Shown here: positions 5,887-19,479 of the stretch, piece by piece | Layout of the letters: every line of letters begins with the position of its first letter | Position numbering within the stretch: the first letter of the stretch is position 1 | DNA from: an uncultured Acidobacteriota bacterium | GTDB taxonomy: Bacteria; Acidobacteriota; Vicinamibacteria; Fen-336 | Direction of reading: 5' to 3' | DNA: 64,000 bases | Assembly: GCA_963831755.1 (NCBI GenBank) | Contig: CAWHRC010000010.1 | Span: 4,785 to 68,784, forward strand | Position numbers and translations under genes: made by a program | The notes under the pieces: generated by a model | Told to the model about the DNA's origin: nothing | Databases searched by the model: none | What the model saw: only the letters and a program-made list of their open reading frames with translations

Positions 5887-7041
5887 TCAACCTTTTTTGT
5901 TGTCAAACAGTCTCCGGGCCACGACTGTCGCCGCTCGCGCGGAGGCGCCCGGCGCACCGAGTCTCGCCCGCACCTCGCAGAGCCCGTCGGTGACCTGGGC
6001 GCGATACGCATCGTCACCCATCAGCCGCAGGGCCTCCGCCGCCACAGTCTCCGGCTGAAAGTGTCGTTGAATCAGCTCTTTGACGATTGCCCTGTCGGCG
6101 ATGAGGTTTGTCATGGCGTAGTGCGGCACGCGGACGAAGGGTCGCCCGAGGGCGTAGGTCAGCGGCGACACCCGGTAGACGACGACCATTGGCAGGCCGA
6201 GCAGGGCGGCCTCGACGGTGGCCGTGCCGGAAGCCACGATGCCGGCAACCGCGCAGCTCATCAGGGAGTGCGTCTGCCCCGCGATCCGAGTGGCGGGCAG
6301 GTCGTTGAGGAGGCGATCGAAGAGTCCGCTGTCCAGGCCCGGGGCGACCGCCAGCGCGGGCTGGACATCCGGTCGGCGCGCCACGACCAATCGGAGCGCG
6401 GCCGCGAGCGGCGGGAGGTTGTGAGCCACCTCCTGCGGCCGGCTGCCCGGCAGCACGGCGAGCACGGGCCGGGCCGCGTCGAGCCCGCACGAGGCGAGGA
6501 ACGCCGTGCGGTCGCTGGCCGGCCGGACGATGTCGACCAGGGGGTGGCCGACGAACGTCACGTCCACGCCCGCCTCGCGATAGAGCGCCTCCTCGAACGG
6601 GAAGATCACGATCATGTGATCGACGGTTTCCCGGATCGCCCGCAGGCGGCCGCGACGCCACGCCCAGACCTGTGGCGAGACGTAGTACACGACCGGCACC
6701 GCGCGCCGGCGGAGCTCCTTGGCGAGCCGCAGGTTGAAGTCCGGGTAGTCGACGAGCACGGCCAGCGCGGGTCGTTCGCGGTCGACCTCGTCCAGCACCG
6801 AGCGGAAGACGCCCCGCAGGCGTCGGAGATGACGCAGCACCTCGACCAGGCCGACGACCGCGAGGTCGCGCGTGTGAGCCACCAGGCGGACGCCCTGCTC
6901 CTGCAGCCGGTCGCCCCCGAGACCGAAGGCTTCGAACGGCGACCCCCGCAGGTGGAGGTGGCGGACGAGCTCCGAGGCGTACAGGTCGCCGGAGGCTTCG
7001 CCGCACGAGACGAGCAGGCGCGCAGCGCCCGGGACGCTCAC
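5887..7041 (-). CDS. lpxB: Lipid-A-disaccharide synthase
   Basis: SCGEASGDL, VDYPDFNLRL, YYVSPQVWAWR, FVGHPL, LPGSR, SGTATVEAAL; start placed at GTG 7041, 7 nt after TATACT. Confidence 0.93.
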   Translation of the reverse strand: MSVPGAARLLVSCGEASGDLYASELVRHLHLRGSPFEAFGLGGDRLQEQGVRLVAHTRDLAVVGLVEVLRHLRRLRGVFRSVLDEVDRERPALAVLVDYPDFNLRLAKELRRRAVPVVYYVSPQVWAWRRGRLRAIRETVDHMIVIFPFEEALYREAGVDVTFVGHPLVDIVRPASDRTAFLASCGLDAARPVLAVLPGSRPQEVAHNLPPLAAALRLVVARRPDVQPALAVAPGLDSGLFDRLLNDLPATRIAGQTHSLMSCAVAGIVASGTATVEAALLGLPMVVVYRVSPLTYALGRPFVRVPHYAMTNLIADRAIVKELIQRHFQPETVAAEALRLMGDDAYRAQVTDGLCEVRARLGAPGASARAATVVARRLFDNKKG

Positions 7042-7176
7042 GGGTCGGAGTATAGGCGACACCCGCCGGCGACGGCCTGTCCCCCGGAGATGACGGCGAC
7101 TCCTCGGGCGCGGCCGGAGCTTGGCGGCAATTGACGGAATCGGCTAGAGTTGTGGTGCCGTGACTCCGAAGCTGCA

Positions 7177-7192
7177 CGGCACGTCACTTGCA
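7177..7192 (+). promoter_or_regulatory. Sigma54 -24/-12 promoter for the PEGA-domain gene
   Basis: CGGCACG-TCAC-TTGCA matches YGGCACG-N4-TTGCW; 31 bp upstream of ATG 7224, SD GGAGG in between. Confidence 0.7.
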
Positions 7193-7223
7193 GAGGTCAC
7201 CGGCGGCTAGGACGGAGGCGACC

Positions 7224-8268
7224 ATGAAGTCCGTGATGCCGATTCTGGCGGGAAGCCTTGCGCTCGTGCTCGCGCCACTCGCGTTCGCGCAGGACCACGC
7301 CGTCCCGCGGGGGGGCGGCGGGGGCGGGAGTTCTTCGGGCGGTGGCGGCGGACACCCTGTCGCCAGCTCGGGCGGTTCGAGCTCGGGCGGCAGCAGTTAC
7401 TCCGGGGGCACCTCGAGCTCCGGCTCCAGCTCCGGCAGCTCGGCCACCACGGCCGAGCGGCGGCACCCGCGTGCCGGGTCGGGCCGCGGTAGCCGGGGAG
7501 GCAGCGGCGGCTACTACGGCTATCCGGGCTACTACCCGGGCTACGACGGCTGGTACTACCCCGGCTGGTACGGCAGCTACTGGTGGCCCTACGGCTCGTA
7601 CGGCTGGTACGGCGGCTACTGGGGCTCTCCCTATGGCGGCTGGGGCGGGGGCGGCTGGGGTGGCGGCACCATGTACCACTACGTCCAGCGCGAGATCGGG
7701 CGCGGTGCGCGTGCTCGTCGATCCCTCCGAGGCCCGCGTCTACGTGGACGGCTACTACGCCGGCATCGTGGACGACTACGACGGGCTGTTCCAGCGCCTC
7801 AACGTCGCGCCGGGCCGCCACGAGATCACGCTCAAGCTGGAGGGCTACCAGACGCACCGCATGAAGGTCTACGTCGCGCCCAACGGCACGCTGAAGCTGC
7901 ACTACACCATGCAGAAGGGCACGGGCGAGACCGTCGAGGACCTCGTCGGCAACGCTCCCGAGGCGCGTGGCGAGCGCGACCGCGGCGACGAGCGCTGGAG
8001 CGCCCGCGAGCGGCAGGACAGGGACGAGCTGAGTGTGGCCGGCAGCGCCGGCAAGCTCAAGCTGGAGGTTCGTCCTGGCGACGCGTCCGTGTACGTGGAC
8101 GGTGCCTTCCGTGGCACCGGTCGCGAGGCTTCCACCCTGCAGCTTCCGGCCGGCCGGCACCGCATCGAGGTCGTCCGGCCGGGCTACCGCACGATCGAGC
8201 GCGACGTCGAGGTCACGCCCGGCGAGACGACGGACCTCACGGTCGACCTGGAGAAGTCCTCGAGCTGA
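7224..8268 (+). CDS. Secreted protein with Gly/Ser and Gly/Tyr/Trp low-complexity region and two PEGA domains (frameshift near 7700)
   Basis: Signal peptide ending AFA-Q; V.V.P..A.VYVDG repeats twice with GRHEITL and GRHRIEV..PGY. Confidence 0.8.
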
Positions 8269-8309
8269 GACACGACGCTCGCGCGACGCGCGGGCCGATT
8301 CGGACGCAG

Positions 8310-8335
8310 ATGGGGGTGCCGCGAGGCACCCCCAT
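8310..8335. repeat. Perfect 11-bp inverted repeat between convergent genes (REP-like element or terminator)
   Basis: ATGGGGGTGCC-GCGA-GGCACCCCCAT; the stem core matches the hairpin at 28745-28770. Confidence 0.75.
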
Positions 8336-8349
8336 TCCCTTCCCGTGGG

Positions 8350-9410
8350 TCAGGGCGTGCCCGTCGTGACGGCGGGCGGTGCCGCGCCCGCCGCGAACAG
8401 CTCCCGGAAGATGCGGCCGGCGACCGCCGAGGCTCCGTGGCCGCTGCCGCGCCGCAGGAACACGACGACCACCAGCTCCGGGTGCTCGGCCGGGGCGTAC
8501 GAGGCGAACCAGCCGAGCGCCGAGCAGGTGCCGGTCTTGCCCGCCACCGCCACGTCGGGGTCGAACGCCGGGCTCGCGCTGCCCTCGTTGACGGCGCCCA
8601 GGAAGCCCTGCGCGAGGCCGTCGAAGCGCGTGCCCTCGGGCAGGCGCCAGCGCTCGTGGGGCACGAAGTCCTGCGGGCCGGAGAGCACCGGCTGGAGCAC
8701 GACGCCGCCGTTGATCGCGGCGGAGATCAGCACCGCCGAGCTGCACGGCCGAGGTCGCGATGCCCTGCGCATGGCTCGAGAGGTGACCCCACGGCCTCGG
8801 GACTGGACCGACGCGGGCACGCAGCCCGGCCGCCTCGCCGGTCAGGTTGATGCCGGACGACCTCGCCCAGGCCGAGCAGGTGTGCGTAGCGCTGGATCGT
8901 CTGGTACCCGAGCTGCTCGCCGACCCACTCGAAGTAAGGGTTGCAGGAGACGGCCAGCGCACGGCGCAGGTCGATCGGCCCGTGCCCGGCCCACATCCAG
9001 CAGCCCTTCTGGCAGCGGTACGTCGTCTCGGGCGTGATCACGCCCTCGGACAGCCCGGCGATCGCGACGACGATCTTGAACACCGAGCAGGGCTGATACG
9101 CGCGCTGCATCGCCTCGACCGGGTTGACGACGGCGCTCACGCGGCCCGGTCCGCGGGTCCATCGCGACCACCGCGCCTCCGCGCCCGGCCGAGGGCGCGC
9201 TGGCAGGCCTGCCCGACGGCCAGGTCCCAGGACGAAGCGCTCGCGGGCAGGATCACCGACGGGCGCCGGCCGGGTGCGGCCGGTCGCCGGCGGGCGCCGC
9301 GCTTCCTGCGGGTCGCCGCCGTGGCGGGCGGGACCAGGAAGGCGGTGGCGAGCACCAGCGCCATCGCGCGGCCGAGGCGATCTCGGCAGGGATCGCTGAC
9401 GGGCCAGCAC
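8350..9410 (-). CDS. Small penicillin-binding transpeptidase-domain protein (several frameshifts)
   Basis: SxxK (PCSVFK), SxN (VSCNP) and KTG (GKTGTC) found across frames; start uncertain (GTG 9410 or ATG 9364). Confidence 0.8.
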
Positions 9411-9471
9411 GCGCCGCGAGCGTAGCACGCCGGCGGGCGGCCGGCGAGCGGACGCGCCTCGTTGTGAGCCT

Positions 9472-9492
9472 CGGCACGCGGATCGCTAGAAT
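9472..9492 (+). promoter_or_regulatory. Possible overlapping sigma54 (CGGCACG-CGGA-TCGCT) and sigma70 -10 (TAGAAT) promoter for the GWxTD gene
   Basis: GG-N10-GC spacing exact with one mismatch in the -12 box; TAGAAT at 9487-9492; SD AGGAGA at 9511-9516. Confidence 0.4.
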
Positions 9493-9523
9493 CGGGGGTC
9501 GCCAGATGCAAGGAGACTCCTCG

Positions 9524-10967
9524 ATGCGCGACCGCCGAAGCGGCGTCCTCGTCGTGCTCGCCCTCGTCGCTGCTGCGGCCCGGCGTCGGCCGCCGCCCAG
9601 AAGCTGGACAACGACGACAAGAAGTTCCTCGCGGACGTGCACCCGCTGATGCTCGCGGACGAGGAGACCATCTACAAGAAGCTCAAGGACAAGGGCGACC
9701 GGCTCGAGTTCCAGAAGATCTTCTGGGCCCGCCGCGATCCCGATCTCGCGACGCCGCAGAACGAGTTCCAGGAGCAGTACCTGAAGGACCGCGCCGAGGC
9801 GGACCAGAAGTTCAGGCTGCGCCGGCACGTCGGGCTCCATGACCGACTGCGGCCGCGTCTACATCCTGCTCGGCAAGCCGGACGAGGTCCAGGGCGACAC
9901 CAGCATGAACCCCGGCATGCGCGCACCGGAGACCTGGACGTACAAGGACAAGCCCGGCCGCACCTTCCAGGGCGGCAAGGCGACGATCGCCTTCGACGCC
10001 GACTGCCGGGGCACGGTCTCGCTCGACCAGCAGCTCGACCGGATCGCCGCGGCCAAGGTCGCACACCCGAACATCGACTATCGCGCGGGCAAGGACGGGA
10101 AGCTCGTCAAGGTGGCCGATCAGCTGCCGAAGGACACCTACGCCCGGGTCCTGCTGAGGGAGCCGCGACAGGACTTCCCGCTCGCTGTTCAGGCTTCCTA
10201 CCTGAAGACGGCTGACGGCTCGACCGCACTGCTCGGGGTCGTCCGGGGAGATGCGACCGGGCTCGCGCCCGGCAACGAGGCCAAGAGCGGTCAACGTGAC
10301 GATCGCCGCGAGTGCCGTGACCCCCGAGGGCAAGGAATTGGGCTGGGCCTCTCAGACGACGGAGGCGCCGATCTCGAGCGGCAAGTTCCTGGCGACATTC
10401 AAGATGGGTGCGAAACCCGGCAAGTGCACGCTACGCACGGCGGTCTACGCGACGAACACCAAGAAGGGTTCAGCCCTGTCGCTGCCGATCGAGGTGCCGG
10501 ACTTTGCCCAGGTGGAGACGGCCGCTGATGGCAGCACCCGGCCCGTGCTGTCGGGGACGGTCGTCATCGTGCGCGAGATGCAGCCCGTAGCGGAGAACGC
10601 GCCCGAGGATCCAGCCGATCCCTTCGCGGCCTTCCGACTCACCTCGGTGCGCGTGATCCCGTTGATGCCGTCCGACCTGCACAAGACGGACAGCGTCTCG
10701 TTCTTCTTCCAGGTCTACGACCTGCAGGTTGATCCGGCGACGAAGAAGGCCCGGGGCACGGCCCGCGTCCGGCTGGTCAAGGAAGGGAAGGGGCAGATCA
10801 CGAGCTCGGAAGAAACCGCGATCGACACTCCCATGGTCGGAACGGAGATCGGCCCCGTGGCGCTGTCGAGCCTGGATCCGGGGAAGTACGTGGCCCGGCT
10901 CGAAGCCACGGACAAGATCGCGCAGAAGACGATCACCCGCGAAGCCGCCTTCGAGATCCGGCCATAG
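9524..10967 (+). CDS. GWxTD-domain-like secreted protein (several frameshifts)
   Basis: Signal peptide; FQKIFWARRDPD...NEF and TDCGRVYILLGKPD, ETWTY; C-terminal beta-rich domain. Confidence 0.75.
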
Positions 10968-10971
10968 CCAG

Positions 10972-11244
10972 GTGAACAAGGCCGAGCTGGTGGCCCGTGT
11001 CGCGCGCGACACCGGCCTCACCAAGGCCGACGTCCTGCGCGCGCTCGACGCCGTGCTCGACAACGTGGCGCGCTCGCTGCGGCGCGGAGAGAAGGTGACG
11101 CTCGTCGACTTCGGCACCTTCCTCGTGACGAGGCGGCGGGCGCGCCAGGGACACAACCCACACACCGGCCAGGCGATCCGCATCGCCGGCCGCAAGTGGC
11201 CGCGCTTCGCGGCCGGCAAGGCCCTGCGCCGGCTGGTGCGCTAG
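10972..11244 (+). CDS. HU/IHF-family DNA-binding protein
   Basis: NKAELV...GLTKA...GEKVTLVDFGTF...NPHTGQAIRI...PRFAAGKAL; 90 aa. Confidence 0.88.
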   Translation: MNKAELVARVARDTGLTKADVLRALDAVLDNVARSLRRGEKVTLVDFGTFLVTRRRARQGHNPHTGQAIRIAGRKWPRFAAGKALRRLVR

Positions 11245-11245
11245 C

Positions 11246-12422
11246 CTAGGCCGGCTTCGCGCTCTTGGCGTGCAGCAGCTCGAGCGCCTTGTCGAGGATG
11301 TGGTCCGGCCTCGGCGCGCCCGGCGGCAGGTCGTCGTCCTCGTCGGGCGTCGCGTCCACGGCCACGGTGGGCTTGAGTCCCTCGCCGTGGATCGCCGTGC
11401 CCTTGGGCGAGACGTACTTCGCCATGGTGAGCACGAGGCCGCCCTCCGCCAGCGGCACCGCGTGCGTGATGCCCGCCCGCCCGAACGTGTGCTCGCCGAC
11501 GAGCCTTGTGCCGCTCGCCGTCGACCAGCGCCGCGGCGATCACCTCCGCCGGCCCGGCGGTGCCGTTGTTGGTGAGCACCACCAGCGGGCCCGACCACGC
11601 CGAGCGGCGGGGGTCCGCCTGCAGCAGCTGCTCGTCCACCCGGCGGCCCACGACCTTGGCGACCGGCCCGCCCTTGAGGAAGATCTCGGCCACGCCCACG
11701 CCGTCCGCCGGGGAGCCGTACGCCGCGTCGCGCAGGTCGAGCACGAGCTGGCGTGCGCCGCCCTTCTTCAGCGACTCCACCTGCGTGCGCACCTCGTCGG
11801 CGGTCGCGGGCGTGAACTCGGCGACCTTGACGTAGCCGATGGACCCGTCGAGCATCCGCCCCTCCGGCGCCGCCGGCAACAGGCGCTCGCGCGTGACGGT
11901 CACCTCGAGCGGGTCGGCCCCCAGCCTCAGGATGCCGAGCTTCACCGACGAGCCCGGCGCGCCGTGCAGCAGGCGCTCCGCGACCACGGCCGGCATCTGC
12001 CGCGTGTGCCGCTCGTCGATCGACTTGAGGAGGTCGCCGGCGCGCAGGCCGGCCTTCGCCGCCGGCGACCCCGGCCGCGCGGCGACCACCATCACGAACG
12101 AGAAGCGCCGCGTGAGCACCAGCCCCACGTCCGCGTCGCCGTCCTTCGCCGGCTGCTGGTAGGCGCGGAACTCGTCGGCGTCGAGGTAGGTGCTGTCGCC
12201 GTCGAGGGCGTCGGCCATTCCCTGGCGGGCGCCCGCCATCGCGCGCTCGATGTTCACCGGCTCGACGTAGGAGTCGACGACGTCCTTCACGACCTCGTTG
12301 AAGACGAGGAGCTGGCCGTAGCTCGTGTCCCCGAAGACCCTCCCGAGGAGGGATCCGACGGCGATGTAGCCGATCAGGACGGTCGAGACGAGGGCCACGG
12401 CGAGGCGGGTGCGCGGGCTCAT
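11246..12422 (-). CDS. S41/CtpA-like PDZ protein lacking the catalytic Ser-Lys dyad (frameshift near 11510)
   Basis: N-terminal membrane anchor, PDZ (GSPAAKAGLRAGD), IGYVKV, LVLDLR, VLTNNGTAGPAE, GEHTFGRAG, LT.AKY.SPKG. Confidence 0.8.
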
Positions 12423-12477
12423 GATTCCAGCAGGATACCACCGCCCGGCCGAGGCGGCTCGGGCGCGCCGGGAGGCG

Positions 12478-13647
12478 TCAGGGCCGCTTCAGCCAGTCCA
12501 GCGGGTCCTCGGCGCGCCCCTGGTAGCGCATCTCGAAGTAGAGGCCGGGGCTGTCCGGTCCGCCCTCGCCGGCCGTGCCCAGGACGGTGCCGGCCTCCAC
12601 CTCCTGGCCCACCGCGACGGACACCTCCTGCAGCTGCGCGTAGAGCGAGTGGTGCTTGCCGCCGTGGTCGACCACGACCATCAGGCCGTAGCCGAGGAAG
12701 CGATCGGCGAACACCACGCGGCCCTCGTGAACCGCTCGCACCGGAGTGTCCGGGGCCGCCTCGATCTCGATCCCGTTGTGCACGGTGTAGGTGTCGAAGC
12801 GCGGGTGCTTGCGGCGGCCGAAACCCGCGAGCACCCGCCCCTCGACCGGCCAGGGCAGCCCGCCGCGAAAGGCCCCCATGGGCACCGCCACCTCCTCGCC
12901 GCCCAGCCCGTCGAGCAGCCGCTGCAGCCTCGTCTCGGCCTGCGCCAGCTCCTCGAGGTAGGCGGCGTTCAGCTCCTTCTTCTCGACCAGCGATGTGAGC
13001 AGGGCGGTCTTGCGCGCGCGCTGGGCGTCGAGCTCGCGGCGCGCGGCCGACAGCCGGTTGCGCAGGTCGATCGACTCGCGCGTGCGCTGCTCGAGCGTCG
13101 ACTTCTCCTTCGTCAGCCGCTCGAGGTCGGCGCGGAAGGCGGCCACCTGCGCGTTGTCGCGGCGCGCCAGCGTCGAGACGAAGCGGTAGCCCCGGAAGAA
13201 GTCCGAGGGGCGGTCGATCGAGAGCAGCAGCCGCAGGTAGCTCATCTCGCCGAGCTTGTACAGGGCCCGCGCGTGGGCCGCCAGCGCGGGACGGGAGGCC
13301 GCCAGGCTCGCCTCGAGCCGGGCGACGCGGGCCACGGTGGCGTCGAGCTCCGCCCGCGTCTTCTTGAGCGTGAGCTGGATCTCGGTCAGCGCCTCCGTGC
13401 GCAGGCGCAGCTCCAGCTCGAGCTGCTCGACCTCGCCCAGCAGGCTCCGCTCCTCGCCGCGCAGCCGCGCCAGCTCCTTCTCGAGCGCGGCGCGCCGCTC
13501 GCGCACCCGCTCGAGCCGCTGCTGGTCCGTCTCGGGCCTGCGGGTGGCGGCCGCCGGCGCGTCCTGCGCCGCTGCTGCCGCGGGGGGAGCCGCCGCGGGC
13601 AGGGTCGCCCCTGCCGCGACGAGCGCCAGCAGCAGGCCCGCGATCAA
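12478..13647 (-). CDS. envC: Murein hydrolase activator EnvC-like (coiled coil plus degenerate M23/LytM domain)
   Basis: Signal peptide, long coiled coil, LPWPVEG, HNGIEI, YAQL and PGLYFE (zinc-ligand His residues lost, as in EnvC). Confidence 0.8.
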   Translation of the reverse strand: MIAGLLLALVAAGATLPAAAPPAAAAAQDAPAAATRRPETDQQRLERVRERRAALEKELARLRGEERSLLGEVEQLELELRLRTEALTEIQLTLKKTRAELDATVARVARLEASLAASRPALAAHARALYKLGEMSYLRLLLSIDRPSDFFRGYRFVSTLARRDNAQVAAFRADLERLTKEKSTLEQRTRESIDLRNRLSAARRELDAQRARKTALLTSLVEKKELNAAYLEELAQAETRLQRLLDGLGGEEVAVPMGAFRGGLPWPVEGRVLAGFGRRKHPRFDTYTVHNGIEIEAAPDTPVRAVHEGRVVFADRFLGYGLMVVVDHGGKHHSLYAQLQEVSVAVGQEVEAGTVLGTAGEGGPDSPGLYFEMRYQGRAEDPLDWLKRP

Positions 13648-13663
13648 CTCCGGCCGGTCCCGC

Positions 13664-15763
13664 TCACCACAGCGGCTTGCCGTCGTAGTCGGCCGGGACC
13701 TCTGCCCCCAGCAGCTTCAGGACCGACGGTGCGATGTCCATGATCGACGGCTCGTCCGTGGTGATCTTGCGGTTGCTGAAGAAGACGCCGTGGCTGATCT
13801 CGGTCGCGGTCGCGCAGTGGTCGCCCGACCACTTGCGGTTGTTGTTCTCGATCACGGCACGGCGGATCCCGCCGAGCGTGTCCTGCCAGCCGACCCGGTA
13901 GCCGTCGAGGAAGCCGACCTGCAGGTCGGGCGCCAGCTGCAGGTACTCGCCCTTGTAGATGTCGTCGCGCCGGTAGACGTCCGCGAACACGCGCTCGCCC
14001 GTCTCGGGATCGACGAGCGGCACCAGCTTCGAGCGGATCTCCTCCTGGAGCTGGCGGTACTCCTCGCCGGCCGAGACGATGCCCTTCGGCTCGCGGCCCT
14101 TGAGGTTGAAGTAGATCTGCCCGAGCCCGACCGCGTAGGCCTTGGTCTGGGACCAGTCGACGCCCTCGAAGAACTTCCCGCGGCCGACGAGCTCGGCCGG
14201 CGCCTTCTCCCCGCTCTGCCCCTGCACGGTCATGTAGCCGTTCTGCAGCAGCCAGGTGTTGAGGTTGACCTCGCGGCGGAACGAGTGGAAGCCGTGGTCG
14301 GACATGATCATGAACAGCGCGTCCTTCGGCAGCTTCTGGCGCACGCGGCCGACGAAGTCGTCGGCCCGGCGGTACACCTTCTCGATCGAGTCGCCGTAGC
14401 GCGCGGCCAGGTCCTTGTCGTACATGGGATGGCGGGGGTCGGTCAGCCGCCACATCATGTGCGAGATGCGGTCGGTCGTCTCGATCGCCGCCACGAACAG
14501 GTCCCAGTCGTCGCGCTTCAGGTTCTCCAGGATGATCTTCTCGCGGTCGTCCATCGCGCGGTCCGAGTCGTACAGGAACTCGGCCTCGTCGAGCCGGCCC
14601 TCGTTGAGCGGCTTGTCGGCCGACTCCGCCCAGCCGAGCGTCCGGTAGATCCCGATCTTCCCCGCCAGCTCGGCCGAGAAGGAGTCCGGCTTCGACAGCG
14701 GCTCGGGCGGGTCGCGCGGGTCCATGTTGAGGGGCGAGGCGTAGAGGCGCAGCTCCTTGTCCGCCTGGCTGACGTGGAACTGCGTCATCCCGTGCAGGCG
14801 GATGAGCGCGTTGACCCTGAACGTGAGCGGGACCCAGGGGCTCCAGTCGCCGGCCTTCAGGCTGAGCTTCTGGCCCTGGATCTCGAGCTCGGCGCGCCCG
14901 GACCCCTCGTTCCAGCGCACCTTCAGCGGCAGGTTGATGTCCTTGCCGGTCGAGAGCTCGTCCAGCCGCGCCAGCTCCTTGTCGGAGAGCGGGCCGGCCT
15001 TCCTCTTCTGCTTGAGCTCGCCCTCCTCCTGCCTGAGCACCGGGTTCTCCGGCCCCTTCAGCGCGGTCTCGGCCACGCCGCCGTCGAAGAGCAGGCGCTT
15101 CAGGATGCCGCCGGCCTCGGCATTGCCCTCCTCGTACGACGAGAGGTCGGTGGCCCAGTAGTAGAACGTGCCCATCGAGGCGCGCAGGTCCGGGGCCGGG
15201 AGCCCGCCGAGCAGGTCGCCGTGGTGCAGCTCCTCCGGCGGCCAGGTCACCGGGACGGTGAGCACGACGCTGTCGATGCCGTCGGCCGACGCCGTCTTCC
15301 AGAAGGACGTGCCGCCGCGCGTCGACTCGATCTTCGCCTTCTGGGTCACGAAGAGGCCCCACAGGAACCTCGGCGGCTCCCTGCGCACCATGTTGAGGTC
15401 GGGCATGTACGCGCGCGCCTCGTCGAGGTGGCGGATCAGGAAGTCGTAGATGCTGTGCTTGCCCGGGTTGACGCCGGTCGCGAAGCTCGACCAGGCCGTC
15501 GGCGACTCGGACGGCTGCGTCGACTTGAGCCGGGCGAAGCTGCCCTCGTCCGCGAGCGCCTTCAGGTTCGGCAGCTTGCCCTCGTCCATCCACTTGCGGG
15601 CGAGCGTCGGGTCCATGCCGTCGAAGCCGAGCACGACCACGCGCTGCCCCGAGCGGCGGAGCGGCTTGCCGCCGGGGAGCGACGTCCGGCAGTCGACGAG
15701 CGGCAGGGCCAGGACCGCGACGAGCGCGACGGACAGGGCCGCGAGACGGGTGGCAGACGCCAT
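13664..15763 (-). CDS. Alkaline phosphatase superfamily / nucleotide pyrophosphatase-phosphodiesterase family protein
   Basis: VVLGFDGMD, STQPSESPTAWSSFATGVNPGKH, TDRISH, MSDHGF, WSGDH; N-terminal signal or anchor. Confidence 0.85.
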   Translation of the reverse strand: MASATRLAALSVALVAVLALPLVDCRTSLPGGKPLRRSGQRVVVLGFDGMDPTLARKWMDEGKLPNLKALADEGSFARLKSTQPSESPTAWSSFATGVNPGKHSIYDFLIRHLDEARAYMPDLNMVRREPPRFLWGLFVTQKAKIESTRGGTSFWKTASADGIDSVVLTVPVTWPPEELHHGDLLGGLPAPDLRASMGTFYYWATDLSSYEEGNAEAGGILKRLLFDGGVAETALKGPENPVLRQEEGELKQKRKAGPLSDKELARLDELSTGKDINLPLKVRWNEGSGRAELEIQGQKLSLKAGDWSPWVPLTFRVNALIRLHGMTQFHVSQADKELRLYASPLNMDPRDPPEPLSKPDSFSAELAGKIGIYRTLGWAESADKPLNEGRLDEAEFLYDSDRAMDDREKIILENLKRDDWDLFVAAIETTDRISHMMWRLTDPRHPMYDKDLAARYGDSIEKVYRRADDFVGRVRQKLPKDALFMIMSDHGFHSFRREVNLNTWLLQNGYMTVQGQSGEKAPAELVGRGKFFEGVDWSQTKAYAVGLGQIYFNLKGREPKGIVSAGEEYRQLQEEIRSKLVPLVDPETGERVFADVYRRDDIYKGEYLQLAPDLQVGFLDGYRVGWQDTLGGIRRAVIENNNRKWSGDHCATATEISHGVFFSNRKITTDEPSIMDIAPSVLKLLGAEVPADYDGKPLW

Positions 15764-15842
15764 CAAACCAGTCTACCCGAGCGCCGGCGCCCGCCGGTAG
15801 GCGCGCGACGAGGCCCGATTGCCCCGTAGAATGGTCGAGCCC

Positions 15843-16693
15843 ATGGCCCGCCCCTCGTCGGTCCTCTGTCCCTCCTGCGGCTCGCTGGTCGGCGTCAAGG
15901 ACGCGCAGTGCCTGAACTGCGGACGGCGCAACCCGGGGATGTGGGGACTCGCCCACCTGCTGCGCAACTGGGCGACGACATGGGCTTCGCGAAGATCGTG
16001 ATGTGGGTGTGCGGCGCCTTGTACCTGGCCTGCCTCGCCTCGGACCCCGAGGGCATCGAGATGAGCGGGCTATTCTCGATGCTGTCGCCCAGCCTGCGCA
16101 GCGAGTTCCTGTTCGGCGCCAGCGGCGCCGTGCCGGTCTTCGTCTACGGCCGCTGGTGGACCGTGCTGAGCGCCGCCTGGCTGCACGGCGGCGTCCTGCA
16201 CATCCTGTTCAACATGCTGTGGGTGCGCGACCTGGCGCCCCCGACCGCCCGGCTCTACGGCCCCGGGCGAACGGTCATCATCTACACGGTGTCGAGCGTG
16301 ACGGGCTTCCTGGCGAGCAGCGCGGCCGGGGCGTTCCTGTCGTTCATGCCCCGCTTCCTCGGCGGTGCGGGGTTCACCCTCGGCGCGTCGGCGCCGATCT
16401 TCGGCCTGATCGGGGCCCTGCTGCACTACGGCCGGCGCGGCGGCAGCACGGCGATCGGCCAGCAGGCGAAGAGCCTCGCCCTCGCCATGCTGGTCTTCGG
16501 GTTCGTGATGCCCGGGGTCGACAACTGGGCGCACCTCGGCGGCCTGGCCGGAGGCTACCTATCGTCGCGCGTGCTCGACCCGCTCAAGCCCGAGCGCGGA
16601 GACCACGTGATCGTCGCCTTCGCCTGCCTCGTCCTGTCGCTGGCGTCGGTCGCCGCCTCGGTCTACTACGGGTGGCCCCTGTTTCACCGGTAG
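15843..16693 (+). CDS. Rhomboid intramembrane serine protease with N-terminal zinc ribbon (frameshift near 15965)
   Basis: CPSC...CLNC; RWWTVLSAAWLHGGVLHILFNM; LGASAP (catalytic Ser); NWAHLGG (catalytic His). Confidence 0.88.
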
Positions 16694-16720
16694 CGTCGGC
16701 CCGCGCGCCGACGGCGGGGA

Positions 16721-17849
16721 TCACGAGCGGTCGTTCGAGTCCGGGCCCTTCTTCGGCGGCTTCGGGACGCGCACGGCGCCCGGCTTCGGGGTGGGCGCAC
16801 GCACGACCACCTTCGGCGAGCGCGGCTGCGGCGTCGAGGCCCGCACCACCACCTTCTTGAGCGGAGAGACGACGCGCGTCGGCCCGGCGTCGTCCACCGG
16901 CACCGTGCGCATGTCGTCATGCAGCGGGATCAGGGTCGGCTCGTGCGAGCGCAGCTCGTCGCCCTCCTCGCCCGCCATGCCGCGCCCGAAGATCGACGTC
17001 AGGTAGTGCTTGAGCGTGAGGTTGGTCGGCCCGTAGCCCTTGTCGTAGAGGAAGTGCTCGCAGGCCTCGCCCATGGCGGCCGCCGAGGCGAAGCGGCGGG
17101 CCGGCGTGGCGCTCGAGCGCGCGCCCCAGGATGGCCTCGACACCGTCGGGCACCGCCGGGTTGTAGCTCCTCGCGGACGGTATGTCCGCGGTCACCACCC
17201 GCTCCAGCACCTCGGCGGTGGTCTCGCCGTGGAACAGCCGCTCGCCCGTCAGCATCTCGAACAGCACGGCGCCCAGCGAGAACAGGTCGCTGCGCTGGTC
17301 GGCCCGCATCTCGACCACCATCTCGGGCGCCATGTAGGAGGGCTTGCCCGCGAGGTAGCTCTCGCGCGTGCCGCTGCGTGCCGCGATCCCGAAGTCGATC
17401 AGCTTGACCGTGCCCTCGCTGGTCATCATCACGTTGCTCGGGCTCACGTCGCGGTGCACGATGCGCGCCTTCTCGAACACGTACTGCAGCGCGCGGCAGA
17501 CGCGGCTGGTGATGAAGACGCTCAGCTCCACGTCGGGCAGGCAGCCCAGCTCGCGGTGCCGGTCGAGGTACTCGACCAGGCTCCAGCCGTCGATGTACTC
17601 GAGCACGATGCACAGCTCGCCGTCGACCCGCTCGAAGTCGAAGATGCGCCCGATGTTCTCGTGGTCGAGCACCGCGTAGCGGCGCGCCTCCTCGACGAAC
17701 AGGCGCAGGTGGTCGGGGTCGGGGGTCTTGAGCTGCTTGATCACGATCGGCCGCTGGAAGCCCGCCTCCCCGAGCAGCAGGCCCTTGCGCACGGTCCCCA
17801 TCCCTCCGGCGCCCAGCTCCTGCAGGATGCGGTACTTCGGCTCGGACAA
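16721..17849 (-). CDS. Hanks-type Ser/Thr protein kinase with Pro/Lys-rich tail (frameshift near 17110)
   Basis: LGAGGMGTV, IVIK, HRDVSPSN, DFG, YMAPE, SDLFSLG. Confidence 0.9.
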
Positions 17850-17950
17850 GGCCCCCCCAGGTGCGTTCGCGGAGGATTGCGTATGCCCCGGCGGGTGTCA
17901 AGGCAGCGGGCGGGCGGGCGCGCCGGCACGCACGGCTATACTGGCGAGAG

Positions 17951-18397
17951 GTGCGCATCATGGCCCTGGACGTGGGCGAGGTCCGGATCGGCGTCGCGCT
18001 CTCCGACGAGACGGAGACGCTCGCCTCCACGCTGACGACGCTGAAGGCCGTGGGCCCGCGGCGGGACGCGCAGTCCGTGGCCGCCCTCGCGCGCGAGCAC
18101 GCGGCCGGGAAGCTCGTCGTCGGCGTGCCGTACCGACTCGACGGCAGCGTCGGCCCGCAGGCGGAGAGGGTGCTGGCGTTCGTCGAGCGCCTGCGCCGGT
18201 CGCTGCGCCTGCCGGTCTCGACCTGGGACGAGCGGCTGACCTCGGTCGAGGCCGTCCGGCGCCTGGCCATGGCGGGCGTGAAGCGGCGCCAGCGCAAGTC
18301 GCGTGTCGACAGCGCCGCCGCGGCGCTCATCCTTCAGGAGTACCTCGACTCCGGTCGGGCGACACCTGCGGCGCCCGCCCCCGGGTCCGACGCGTGA
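17951..18397 (+). CDS. ruvX: Holliday junction resolvase-like / pre-16S rRNA maturation nuclease YqgF
   Basis: MALDVGEVRIGVALSD, VVGVP, WDERLTS, VDSAAAALILQEYLD. Confidence 0.9.
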   Translation: MRIMALDVGEVRIGVALSDETETLASTLTTLKAVGPRRDAQSVAALAREHAAGKLVVGVPYRLDGSVGPQAERVLAFVERLRRSLRLPVSTWDERLTSVEAVRRLAMAGVKRRQRKSRVDSAAAALILQEYLDSGRATPAAPAPGSDA

Positions 18398-19479
18398 GCG
18401 GCGCGGCTGCCTCCCGCCAGCGCCCGGCACGTTCCCGCCGCGAGCGCGGCGCCGGCCGCCTGCGCCGCATCGCCGCCCGTCTCGTGGCCGCGCTCGTCGT
18501 CGCGGGCCTCGCGACCGCCGGCTGGCTCGCGTGGGTGCACGAGACGACGACCGTCAAGCTCCGGGACGGGGAGCCGCCCTTGCGTCTGCTCGTGCCCGAG
18601 GGCGCCAACGCGGACTCGATCGGCCGCGACCTGCAGGCACTGGGCCTGACGGTCCACCCGGCCGTGTTCCGCCTGCTGGCGCGCGCGCGCGGCGTGTCCG
18701 GGCAGCTCAAGGCGGGCGAGTACGAACTCGCGGGCCCGCTTTCGCTCGAGCAGATTCTCGACAAGCTGGTCCGCGGCGACGTGCTGCGGCGGCCGATCAC
18801 CGTGCCCGAGGGCCGCACGCTGGCCGAGATTGCCGACCTCGTCGCGACGCAAGGGCTGGACCGGGAGTCGTTCGTGCGCGCCGCCAGCGATCCCGCGCCG
18901 GTGCGCGACCTCGACCCGGCCGCGGCCGACCTGGAAGGCTACCTGTTCCCGGACACCTACGACCTGCCGCGGACGCCGGACGCGCCGGAGGTGCTGGTGC
19001 ACCGCATGACGCAGCGCTTCCGTGCCGTGCTGGCGCCGCAGCTGCCGGCGATCGCGAGGCGCGGCCTGAGCGTGCGCCAGGTCGTCACCGTGGCTTCGAT
19101 CGTCGAGCTCGAGACGGGCCAGGTGGAAGAGCGGCCGCGCATCGCCGCCGTGTTCCTGAACCGCCTGCAGAAGGGGATGCTGCTGCAGACCGACCCGACG
19201 GTCATCTACGCGCTCAAGAAGGCGGGCCGCTGGAACGGCAACATCCGCAAGCCGGACCTGCAGCTGGACTCTCCCTACAACACCTACCGGCACGCCGGCC
19301 TGCCGCCCGGGCCGATCGGCTGCCCCGGCCGCGAGGCGATCCTCGCGGTGGTCGACCCCGCGCCGACCAGGGCGCTCTACTTCGTCAGCCGCAACGACGG
19401 GACGCACCAGTTCAGCGAGACGCTGGCCGAGCACAACCGCGCCGTGGACAAGTACCAGCGGCGCAGGGCCGCCTCCTAG
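18394..19479 (+). CDS. mltG: Endolytic transglycosylase MltG
   Basis: TM anchor, EGYLFPDTY, ASIVELE, LQTDPTVIY, SPYNTY..AGLPPGPI, LYFV; GTGA overlap with ruvX. Confidence 0.92.
   Translation: MSGAAASRQRPARSRRERGAGRLRRIAARLVAALVVAGLATAGWLAWVHETTTVKLRDGEPPLRLLVPEGANADSIGRDLQALGLTVHPAVFRLLARARGVSGQLKAGEYELAGPLSLEQILDKLVRGDVLRRPITVPEGRTLAEIADLVATQGLDRESFVRAASDPAPVRDLDPAAADLEGYLFPDTYDLPRTPDAPEVLVHRMTQRFRAVLAPQLPAIARRGLSVRQVVTVASIVELETGQVEERPRIAAVFLNRLQKGMLLQTDPTVIYALKKAGRWNGNIRKPDLQLDSPYNTYRHAGLPPGPIGCPGREAILAVVDPAPTRALYFVSRNDGTHQFSETLAEHNRAVDKYQRRRAAS

What the first reader, a model, noticed from the sequence alone, without database searches (positions are those of the whole stretch)
11246..13647. 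Catalytically dead CtpA-like protein next to the pseudo-peptidase EnvC
Established: S41A proteases use a Ser-Lys dyad in (S/T)ASASE and TFGKG; EnvC has a LytM domain without zinc ligands and activates amidases. Seen: the S41 homologue reads TAGPAE (Ser to Gly) and TFGRAG (Lys to Arg), with DLRDAAYG replacing DLRxNxGG, yet keeps its anchor, PDZ domain and fold motifs. Both changes lie away from the nearby frameshift. The upstream EnvC-like gene has YAQL and PGLYFE. Inference: a pair of pseudo-enzymes, the S41 acting as a PDZ scaffold, substrate trap or dominant-negative regulator of cell-wall hydrolases instead of degrading them.
Basis: partly seen in the sequence, partly recalled or inferred. 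Interest (0 to 1): 0.66.

Follow-up and report, generated by a model that had tools for sequence, protein, structure and literature searches.

The report
Conserved dead CtpA protease beside EnvC
In this soil acidobacterium the gene that normally encodes the cell-wall-controlling protease CtpA has lost its cutting residues, and the same holds across most of the phylum, so the protein probably binds cell-wall proteins instead of cutting them; the frameshift in this copy is most likely an assembly error.

Summary
The minus-strand gene at 12422..11246 encodes a membrane-anchored PDZ + S41 protein. Gly replaces the nucleophile Ser, Arg replaces the base Lys, Thr replaces the third-residue Gln, and the oxyanion motif is degenerate. 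It lies 55 nt downstream of a typical EnvC.

This is not decay of one gene. All 120 closest database homologues are intact and lack Ser/Lys, and none of 80 named Vicinamibacteria genome loci has the Ser. dN/dS is 0.16-0.30, the same as for EnvC.

The protein belongs to a well-supported clade found in most sampled Acidobacteriota families. Gly is fixed at the Ser site and the Lys site varies freely. 57 of 61 clade loci sit next to envC, yibQ/sddA, ruvX-mltG or PBP1A. The same genomes, this one included, carry a separate CtpA with an intact dyad.

An AlphaFold model (pLDDT 92) matches P. aeruginosa CtpA.

The single-base frameshift is probably an assembly indel, because 5 of 11 neighbouring genes are split in the same way. 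Reads could not be checked.

What the protein does is inferred only. No paper in the searched library describes it.

The parts
11246..12422 (-). CtpA-like S41 pseudo-protease gene. It gives 391 aa once the one surplus base is set aside. Layout: N-terminal TM helix, PDZ, S41 core, C-terminal helix.
   Evidence: Pfam PDZ_6 + Peptidase_S41. PDB alignment to CtpA. Intact orthologues of 387-396 aa. AF2 model of the 93%-identical orthologue has pLDDT 92.4 and its best Foldseek hit is 8sxf_B, TM 0.76/0.82.
12342..12404 (-). N-terminal hydrophobic helix (residues 7-27, LAVALVSTVLIGYIAVGSLLG), read as a membrane anchor
   Evidence: AF2 predicts helix 3-29. Ser13 (83%) and Gly23 (88%), with Tyr35 (81%, just after the helix), are conserved in the dead clade but not in active CtpAs. 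That the anchor is not cleaved is inferred.
11895..12125 (-). PDZ domain (residues 100-176)
   Evidence: Pfam PDZ_6 / PDZ_2. Gly100 and the GSPAxxAGLxxGD core are conserved. The GFxGxG loop of active CtpAs is reduced to Gly100, and the Arg153 of active CtpAs (81%) is not kept.
11715..11738 (-). DLRDAAYG, the degenerate counterpart of the DLRxNPGG oxyanion-hole motif
   Evidence: In 68 active CtpAs Asn is 94% and the two Gly are 100%. In 115 dead-clade proteins the Asn site is C/T/N/V and the first Gly is 31%.
11553..11555 (-). Codon GGG = Gly290 at the position of the nucleophile Ser
   Evidence: Aligns to Ser302 of P. aeruginosa CtpA, shown by comparing 7rpq with the S302A entry 7rqh. Coordinates.
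11513..11513 (-). Approximate site of one surplus base that shifts the frame (+1) between DGE and LVGEHTFG
   Evidence: It is the only gap in the DNA alignment with orthologue L010 (94.7% identity). tblastn frames switch at 11514/11515.
11477..11479 (-). Codon CGG = Arg315 at the position of the general-base Lys
   Evidence: Aligns to Lys327 of P. aeruginosa CtpA. Coordinates.
12478..13647 (-). EnvC-like amidase activator: coiled coil plus degenerate LytM/M23 domain. It lies 55 nt upstream of the S41 gene.
   Evidence: Pfam M23. Full-length matches to EnvC in FtsEX-EnvC structures 8i6o, 8tzk and 6tpi, with YAQL and GLYFE at the former metal-ligand motifs.
13664..15766 (-). 700-aa type I phosphodiesterase / nucleotide pyrophosphatase (alkaline-phosphatase superfamily). 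It ends 16 nt before envC and is probably the first gene of the unit.
   Evidence: Pfam Phosphodiest 2.3e-35. The same gene order occurs in L092 and L094, in 26 of 80 Vicinamibacteria loci and in 8 loci of the phylum sample.
10972..11244 (+). HU-type DNA-binding protein, convergent with the S41 gene. It marks the end of the unit; there is no yibQ here.
   Evidence: 97% identical to the HU gene in the same position in L092. No PF04748 match anywhere in this 84%-complete genome.
17957..19284 (+). ruvX-mltG pair, divergent from the envC unit. A Ser/Thr kinase, a rhomboid and the phosphodiesterase lie between them.
   Evidence: tblastn with RuvX and MltG queries confirmed by Pfam. Same layout in L092.

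Best explanation
The gene is the Vicinamibacteria member of an old clade of CtpA-type (MEROPS S41A) homologues, found in most sampled Acidobacteriota families, that no longer have a catalytic centre.

Shown:
- The Ser nucleophile, the Lys base and the oxyanion-hole motif are replaced.
- The whole fold is kept.
- The gene is under purifying selection.
- It sits in the ctpA position of the envC-ctpA(-yibQ) cell-wall operon.
- A separate CtpA with an intact dyad is encoded elsewhere in the same genome.

Inferred:
- The protein is an inner-membrane-anchored periplasmic pseudo-protease. It holds a partner protein, probably by a C-terminal tail or an extended segment, in its PDZ domain and dead cleft without cutting it.
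- In this way it tethers or regulates cell-wall remodelling proteins. Candidates, suggested by the neighbouring genes, are EnvC and its amidases, the YibQ/SddA deacetylase, MltG and PBP1A.
- It would be an S41 counterpart of the degenerate LytM factors.
- The conserved residues in its transmembrane helix suggest that it docks into a membrane complex.
- The single-base frameshift in this copy is most probably an assembly indel, so the organism likely makes the full 391-aa protein.
For: Catalytic residues are replaced.

Close relatives:
- All 120 closest homologues are intact, 387-396 aa, and read TAG..E / TFGR.
- Of 80 named Vicinamibacteria genome loci, none has Ser, 61 read Gly/Arg, and 68 have envC directly upstream on the same strand.
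- dN/dS is 0.16-0.30 against 0.16-0.35 for EnvC.

Clade:
- Trees place the dead forms in one clade with 100% support, apart from intact-dyad CtpAs. The intact-dyad side includes the acidobacterial paralogues.
- Among 115 clade members against 68 active ones, Ser is 100% in active and Gly 79% in the clade. Lys is 99% in active; in the clade Arg reaches only 22% and eleven other residues occur.

Phylum sample:
- Of 61 dead-type loci, one keeps both Ser and Lys.
- 57 of the 61 lie next to envC (21), yibQ (15), ruvX-mltG (21) or PBP1A (9). Neighbour identities were confirmed with Pfam.
- None of 16 active-type loci has such a neighbour.

This genome:
- An intact-dyad paralogue lies on contig C25.
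- FtsX with its periplasmic domain and two Amidase_3 genes are present.

Fold: pLDDT 92.4, pTM 0.86, best matches CtpA 8sxf/9ku0 and CtpB.

Operon precedent: envC-ctpA-PA5135(yibQ/sddA) in P. aeruginosa (PMC12569750).

Frameshift as artefact:
- 5 of 11 genes between 5.9 and 18.4 kb are split relative to intact orthologues in a related genome.
- Two other S41 genes of this genome also look split.
- pN/pS after the shift stays at 0.24-0.54.
Against: No biochemical data exist. Loss of activity is inferred from sequence only.

The binding function, the partners and the membrane docking are guilt-by-association.

The PDZ carboxylate-binding loop is partly degenerate in the clade, so binding of a C-terminal tail is not assured.

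EnvC and the dead CtpA are not always found together, so EnvC cannot be the universal partner.

A few clade members keep Ser and Lys (L054 / P0159, P0135). The clade is therefore not uniformly dead, and the history of the loss (one event or several) is unresolved.
Confidence: 0.77

Rival explanations
1. In this particular strain the gene is a true pseudogene. The frameshift is real, the protein is truncated or garbled after residue 303, and the locus is decaying.
For: The assembly does contain the extra base. Reads could not be checked.
Against: Frameshifts hit 5 of 11 neighbouring conserved genes, including a kinase and a transpeptidase, at about 0.6 per kb. That is not plausible for a living genome and is typical of consensus indels. 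Other S41 genes on C16 and C25 are split too. The segment after the shift has no stops in its own frame and pN/pS of 0.24-0.54. All 120 close orthologues are intact.
Confidence: 0.1
2. The protein is still a protease that uses a non-canonical catalytic arrangement, for example the conserved Thr288 or a Ser at position 289 as nucleophile.
For: Thr288 is 91% conserved in the clade and Glu293 is 99% conserved. The Gln of the triad is kept in 76% of the clade, though not in this protein. The reference structures in the PDB show these proteases in separate resting and active states, so geometry could in principle adapt.
Against: The Thr/Ser at that position is equally conserved in active enzymes (Ser 84%), so it is a shared structural residue, not a new one. 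No candidate base exists: the Lys site takes 12 or more different residues. The oxyanion motif is lost. No Ser, His, Cys, Lys or Asp is conserved only in the dead clade near the cleft.
Confidence: 0.05
3. The dead copy works mainly through the active CtpA paralogue. It would be a non-catalytic subunit or a decoy that forms mixed oligomers or competes for substrates, and so tunes degradation of cell-wall hydrolases (the dominant-negative or anti-protease model).
For: Nearly every sampled genome with a dead copy also has an intact-dyad CtpA. The PDB entries matched here describe P. aeruginosa CtpA in complex with its partner LbcA (entry titles). Papers surfaced by the search describe CtpA as a hexamer activated by that partner (titles and abstracts). 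The C-terminal helix (D..L.KALE.L) is conserved in both clades.
Against: The two clades are only about 30% identical. The active acidobacterial paralogue has a long extra C-terminal region (500-740 aa) and an unrelated gene neighbourhood. The conserved TM helix is specific to the dead clade. No interaction test was possible.
Confidence: 0.15

Closest known systems
P. aeruginosa CtpA (PA5134; MEROPS S41A C-terminal processing peptidase) in the envC-ctpA-PA5135 operon
   Same: Best sequence match (E 3.7e-42, 32% identity) and best fold match (8sxf_B, TM 0.76/0.82). Same PDZ + S41 layout and the same position directly downstream of envC. In other acidobacterial families it is also upstream of yibQ/sddA (PMC12569750).
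   Different: Ser302, Lys327 and Gln331 are Gly, Arg and Thr, and the NPGG motif is lost. The N-terminal helix is conserved. CtpA acts by degrading peptidoglycan endopeptidases with the adaptor LbcA. This protein cannot be expected to cleave anything.
Degenerate LytM factors (EnvC, NlpD, DipM)
   Same: A hydrolase fold that lost its catalytic residues, is kept under selection and works as a regulator of cell-wall enzymes. One of them, EnvC, is the upstream gene (PMC10336132 abstract).
   Different: A different fold (M23 metallopeptidase against S41 serine peptidase). For the LytM factors the activating mechanism is shown by experiment. Here it is only inferred.
Vertebrate IRBP / RBP3 modules
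   Same: S41-fold proteins that lost the catalytic Ser after descent from a bacterial S41 peptidase and became binding proteins (PMC10120077).
   Different: They are eukaryotic, secreted, four-module retinoid and fatty-acid carriers with no link to the cell wall, and represent an independent loss.
B. subtilis CtpB and H. pylori CtpA
   Same: Same fold (4c2e TM 0.73; 9ku0 TM 0.75-0.77), a PDZ-S41 protease that has separate resting and active states in the PDB entries.
   Different: These are active proteases. The Arg that is conserved in active CtpAs at the aligned PDZ position (81%) is not kept in the dead clade (31%; His in the window protein). I believe this corresponds to CtpB Arg168, but that equivalence rests on my own recall and was not aligned here.

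Membership tests
MEROPS S41A / C-terminal processing peptidase (CtpA, CtpB, Prc) | Peptidase_S41 core fold preceded by a PDZ domain | tested here: met
   Pfam PF03572 8.5e-30 and PF17820 1e-11. The AF2 model matches CtpA and CtpB structures.
MEROPS S41A / C-terminal processing peptidase (CtpA, CtpB, Prc) | Nucleophile Ser in G-(S/T)-x-S-x-x-E | tested here: not met
   Gly290 aligns to Ser302 of 7rpq. Ser is 100% in 68 active sequences; Gly is 79% in 115 clade members.
MEROPS S41A / C-terminal processing peptidase (CtpA, CtpB, Prc) | General-base Lys in T-F-G-K-G, with a supporting Gln four residues later | tested here: not met
   Arg315 aligns to Lys327 and Thr319 to Gln331. The Lys site is unconstrained in the clade.
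MEROPS S41A / C-terminal processing peptidase (CtpA, CtpB, Prc) | Oxyanion-hole motif D-L-R-x-N-x-G-G | tested here: not met
   The protein reads DLRDAAYG. Asp and Arg are kept; Asn and the first Gly are lost.
MEROPS S41A / C-terminal processing peptidase (CtpA, CtpB, Prc) | Proteolytic activity | not testable with these tools
   This needs an enzyme assay.
Pseudoenzyme (non-peptidase homologue of S41) | Catalytic residues absent, yet the gene is conserved under purifying selection in many lineages | tested here: met
   120 + 80 orthologues lack the Ser/Lys dyad. dN/dS is 0.16-0.30. The clade has 100% support.
envC-ctpA-yibQ/sddA cell-wall operon | envC directly upstream on the same strand | tested here: met
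   The gap is 55 nt. 68 of 80 Vicinamibacteria loci and 21 of 61 loci in the phylum sample show the same order.
envC-ctpA-yibQ/sddA cell-wall operon | yibQ/sddA (PF04748) directly downstream | tested here: not met
   In the window a convergent HU gene follows, and the genome has no PF04748 match. The feature is met in 15 loci of other acidobacterial families.
EnvC (amidase activator) - the upstream gene | Long coiled coil plus a LytM domain that lacks the metal-binding His residues | tested here: met
   Full-length alignment to EnvC of 8i6o, 8tzk and 6tpi. YAQL and GLYFE stand where I recall active M23 enzymes having a His-containing motif and HxH; the active-enzyme motifs are from my own knowledge.
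EnvC (amidase activator) - the upstream gene | Partners FtsEX and an Amidase_3 enzyme present in the genome | tested here: met
   FtsX_ECD on C18 and two Amidase_3 genes on C13. Physical interaction was not testable.

The most novel reading that the evidence does not exclude
Acidobacteriota carry an ancient family of C-terminal-processing pseudo-proteases, present in most of the phylum, that took over the ctpA slot of the envC-ctpA-yibQ module. These proteins would act as membrane-anchored, non-cutting regulators or tethers of peptidoglycan enzymes (amidase activators, MltG, PBP1A, SddA). They would be the S41 equivalent of degenerate LytM factors. The catalytic Ser would have been lost to Gly several times in parallel inside the clade.
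Probability: 0.35. Interest if true: 0.75.

Novelty: new variant of a known kind. Interest (0 to 1): 0.57.

Why it matters
CtpA and Prc proteases are known only as enzymes that destroy cell-wall hydrolases. A conserved, selected and catalytically empty CtpA in the same operon slot, present in most of a major soil phylum, would show two things. The PDZ-S41 scaffold has a useful job without proteolysis. And the regulation of cell-wall cutting has recruited a second class of pseudo-enzymes besides the degenerate LytM factors.

The finding also corrects an annotation. Public records call these proteins 'S41 family peptidase' or 'carboxyl-terminal processing protease'.

It gives a clean experimental handle, because active and dead paralogues sit in the same cell.

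It also flags that this assembly has many indel errors, so apparent pseudogenes in it should not be trusted.

Tried and rejected
- The search for related loci with the broad 26-sequence alignment failed because no stretch was conserved enough. A narrower alignment worked.
- My first pass over the fetched loci assumed the match was on the + strand and gave nonsense. I redid it with tblastn-defined frames.
- I looked for a replacement nucleophile or base conserved only in the dead clade and found none.
- I tested whether EnvC and the dead CtpA always co-occur. They do not, so I dropped the obligate-pair idea.
- I looked for a paper on a bacterial dead CtpA in four literature searches. None turned up. 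The A. baumannii WthA 'hub protein' paper proved to concern an LbcA-type TPR adaptor, not a dead protease.
- A sigma-70 promoter and terminator scan of 10.8-16.2 kb gave nothing above chance.
- I tried to name the taxa of a second dead lineage (Ala/Arg). No source names were available.
Full report
**What is in the window**

Two minus-strand ORFs fill the finding.
- ORF 13647..12478 is 389 aa.
- ORF 12422..11246 reads 393 aa in one frame. It continues in the +1 frame with a 97-codon open stretch that ends at the true stop.

Pfam gives Peptidase_M23 behind a coiled coil for the first ORF. It gives PDZ_6 plus a full-length Peptidase_S41 match (8.5e-30) for the second, once the two frames are joined. 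The gene upstream of both (15766..13664) is a 700-aa type I phosphodiesterase / nucleotide pyrophosphatase that ends 16 nt before envC. Downstream lies a convergent HU gene.

**The catalytic residues**

phmmer against PDB sequences puts P. aeruginosa CtpA first (E 3.7e-42). The wild-type entry (7rpq, GSASAAE) and the S302A entry (7rqh, GSAAAAE) differ at exactly the column where the window protein has the Gly of GTAGPAE, so Gly290 stands for the nucleophile. In the same alignment Arg315 stands for Lys327 and Thr319 for Gln331. DLRDAAYG replaces DLRNNPGG.

The substitutions lie 13 codons before and 11 codons after the frame change, so the shift does not create them.

**The frameshift**

Against the closest orthologue DNA (L010, 94.7% identical) the only gap is one surplus base near 11513.

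I compared the window with the intact genes of a related genome (L092, GCA_936410845.1). Between 5.9 and 18.4 kb, 5 of 11 genes are split into two or three frames:
- Ser/Thr kinase
- the S41 gene
- a 481-aa protein, split twice
- a transpeptidase, split at least twice
- a PEGA protein

. Two other S41 genes of this genome, on C16 and C25, also look split. The genome is only 84% complete by marker genes.

After the shift the S41 reading frame has no stop, and pN/pS is 0.24-0.54. This pattern fits consensus indel errors, not gene decay. I put it at about 85-90%.

**Conservation among close relatives**

The 120 best database homologues (70-93% identity, 387-396 aa) are all intact apart from the window's own frameshifted call. 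They read TAG..E at the Ser site and TFGR at the Lys site.

A scan of species-representative genomes returned 80 loci, nearly all named Vicinamibacteria, Vicinamibacterales, Luteitalea or Acidobacteriota.
- None has Ser at the nucleophile site.
- 61 are Gly/Arg.
- 68 have envC immediately upstream on the same strand, often with a divergent ruvX-mltG pair beyond it.

.

Pairwise dN/dS among six orthologues is 0.16-0.30, the same range as EnvC at 0.16-0.35.

**A clade across most of the phylum**

An exhaustive HMMER search of 1.8 billion cluster representatives with the intact orthologue P0001 gave 150 top hits. About half of them lack the Ser. FastTree and IQ-TREE (LG+C20) both split them with 100% support:
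- a clade of 61 in which 55 lack both residues;
- a clade of intact-dyad CtpAs, which includes the acidobacterial active paralogues.

Named members of the dead clade come from Vicinamibacterales, Bryobacterales, Thermoanaerobaculia, Blastocatellia and unclassified Acidobacteriota.

In a sample of 151 Acidobacteriota genomes (60 families) every genome had a match, and most had two. I read the sequences of 77 loci.
- The 16 active-type copies all carry GSASASE-like and T(F/W)GKGLVQ motifs, are 500-740 aa long, and have none of the cell-wall neighbours I tested.
- Of the 61 dead-type copies, one (L054, family f36) keeps both Ser and Lys.
- 57 of the 61 lie beside cell-wall genes: envC upstream (21), yibQ/sddA downstream (15), a divergent ruvX-mltG (21) or a downstream PBP1A gene (9). 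The neighbour identities were confirmed with Pfam.

The envC-ctpA-yibQ order is the operon described in P. aeruginosa (PMC12569750). By position, then, the dead clade holds the canonical ctpA slot. The upstream phosphodiesterase is also a recurrent member of the unit in distant families.

**What is kept and what is lost**

I compared 115 clade members with 68 active enzymes.

| Feature | Active CtpAs | Dead clade |
|---|---|---|
| Nucleophile site | Ser 100% | Gly 79% |
| Base site | Lys 99% | Arg 22%, then Ala, Leu, Val, Lys, Glu, Met and others |
| Asn of the oxyanion motif | 94% | 16% |
| First Gly of the oxyanion motif | 100% | 31% |
| Arg at PDZ position 153 | 81% | 31% |

The PDZ loop GFxGxG of active enzymes keeps only its last Gly in the clade.

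Structural residues are kept in both groups: YVE, LDP, the GSPA..AG..GD core, D-L-R, Glu293, Gly309 and the C-terminal helix.

Residues conserved only in the dead clade are Ser13 and Gly23 in the N-terminal helix and Tyr35 just after it, plus Thr288, Ala292 and Ala297. No new Ser, His, Cys, Lys or Asp appears, so I see no relocated active site.

The AF2 model of P0001 is confident (pLDDT 92.4, pTM 0.86). It matches CtpA of P. aeruginosa and H. pylori and CtpB of B. subtilis.

**Relation to EnvC**

The upstream protein aligns over its full length with EnvC from FtsEX-EnvC complexes. It carries the same degenerate motifs as E. coli EnvC. FtsX with its periplasmic domain and two Amidase_3 genes are present in the genome. 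So EnvC here is ordinary.

The two proteins are not obligate partners.
- Families whose dead copy sits by mltG, PBP1A or yibQ have no full-length EnvC.
- Families f8 and f26 keep EnvC without a dead CtpA.
- Family f42 has envC directly followed by yibQ.
- The small-genome family f14 has only a badly degenerate S41 remnant between envC and yibQ.

.

**Interpretation**

*Shown:* a conserved, selected, fold-complete CtpA homologue without catalytic residues; placed in cell-wall gene neighbourhoods; co-existing with an intact-dyad paralogue.

*Inferred:* it is a membrane-anchored periplasmic pseudo-protease that binds a partner without cutting it, and so regulates or tethers peptidoglycan-remodelling proteins. 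The conserved transmembrane helix hints at docking in a membrane complex.

Which partner, and whether the effect is activation, protection from the active CtpA or localisation, cannot be decided here.

The nested members that keep Ser and Lys (P0159 / L054, P0135) mean one of two histories: either the dyad was lost several times in parallel, mostly to Gly, or it was retained in a few lines. Well-supported branches force at least seven state changes.

**Novelty**

Four literature searches found no description of a bacterial dead CtpA. The nearest precedents are two:
- the degenerate LytM factors, for the logic of a dead hydrolase acting as a regulator;
- vertebrate IRBP, for an S41 fold that lost its Ser (PMC10120077).

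Earlier notes of this scan report the same family in other acidobacterial genomes, and independent Ser-less S41 proteins in other phyla. I treated them as leads. The claims about Acidobacteriota were re-tested here.

I rate this a new variant of a known kind, of moderate to good interest.

Noticed in passing
window 5893-18385: The assembly has many single-base indels. Relative to intact orthologues in a related genome, the kinase (~17100), the S41 gene (~11513), a 481-aa protein (~9820 and ~10270), a transpeptidase (~9170 and ~8800) and a PEGA protein (~7700) are split across frames. Apparent pseudogenes elsewhere in this genome should be treated with suspicion.
   Followed up: yes
genome contig C25:5021-6745 (L001) and C16:287199-289226 (L004/L008): The intact-dyad CtpA paralogue (HSASASE / TFGKGLVQT) turns into Arg/Ala-rich nonsense near its C-terminus. 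A tricorn-like S41 gene on C16 is split into two frames. Both look like further assembly frameshifts.
   Followed up: partly
window 13664-15766; also L047, L060, L077, L078, L084, L087 and 26 of loci L095-L174: A 700-aa membrane-anchored alkaline-phosphatase-superfamily phosphodiesterase precedes envC in several distant acidobacterial families. It seems to be a regular fourth member of the envC / dead-ctpA / yibQ unit. Its substrate is unknown.
   Followed up: partly
L054 (G070, family f36) and proteins P0159, P0135: Inside the otherwise dead clade a few lineages keep Ser and Lys. L054 / P0159 also keep the Asn and Gly-Gly of the oxyanion motif and sit next to envC. They may be surviving active forms and are the natural comparison for dating the loss.
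   Followed up: partly
proteins P0225, P0236, P0267 (also P0244, P0208): A separate lineage inside the active CtpA clade reads GSAAGSE / TFGRASIQT (Ser to Ala, Lys to Arg) while keeping DLRNNPGGL. This is an independent loss of the dyad. Its taxonomy is unknown because no source names were available.
   Followed up: partly
L185, L187, L188 (family f14, genomes of 1.9 Mb) and L180-L182, L186 (family f42): In small-genome acidobacteria the slot between envC and yibQ holds only a very degenerate PDZ/S41 remnant. In family f42 envC is followed directly by yibQ, as in E. coli.
   Followed up: partly
L103, L111, L145: Contigs carrying 45-73%-identical orthologues with the acidobacterial gene order are labelled Hyphomicrobium, Chloroflexia and Bifidobacteriaceae in their MAG records. 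These are probably binning or labelling errors.
   Followed up: no
window 9580-10964 (+): The 481-aa protein next to HU has no Pfam family on record in the relatives' gene tables, and its C-terminal part gave no Pfam match here. It is conserved in the same position in all close relatives.
   Followed up: no
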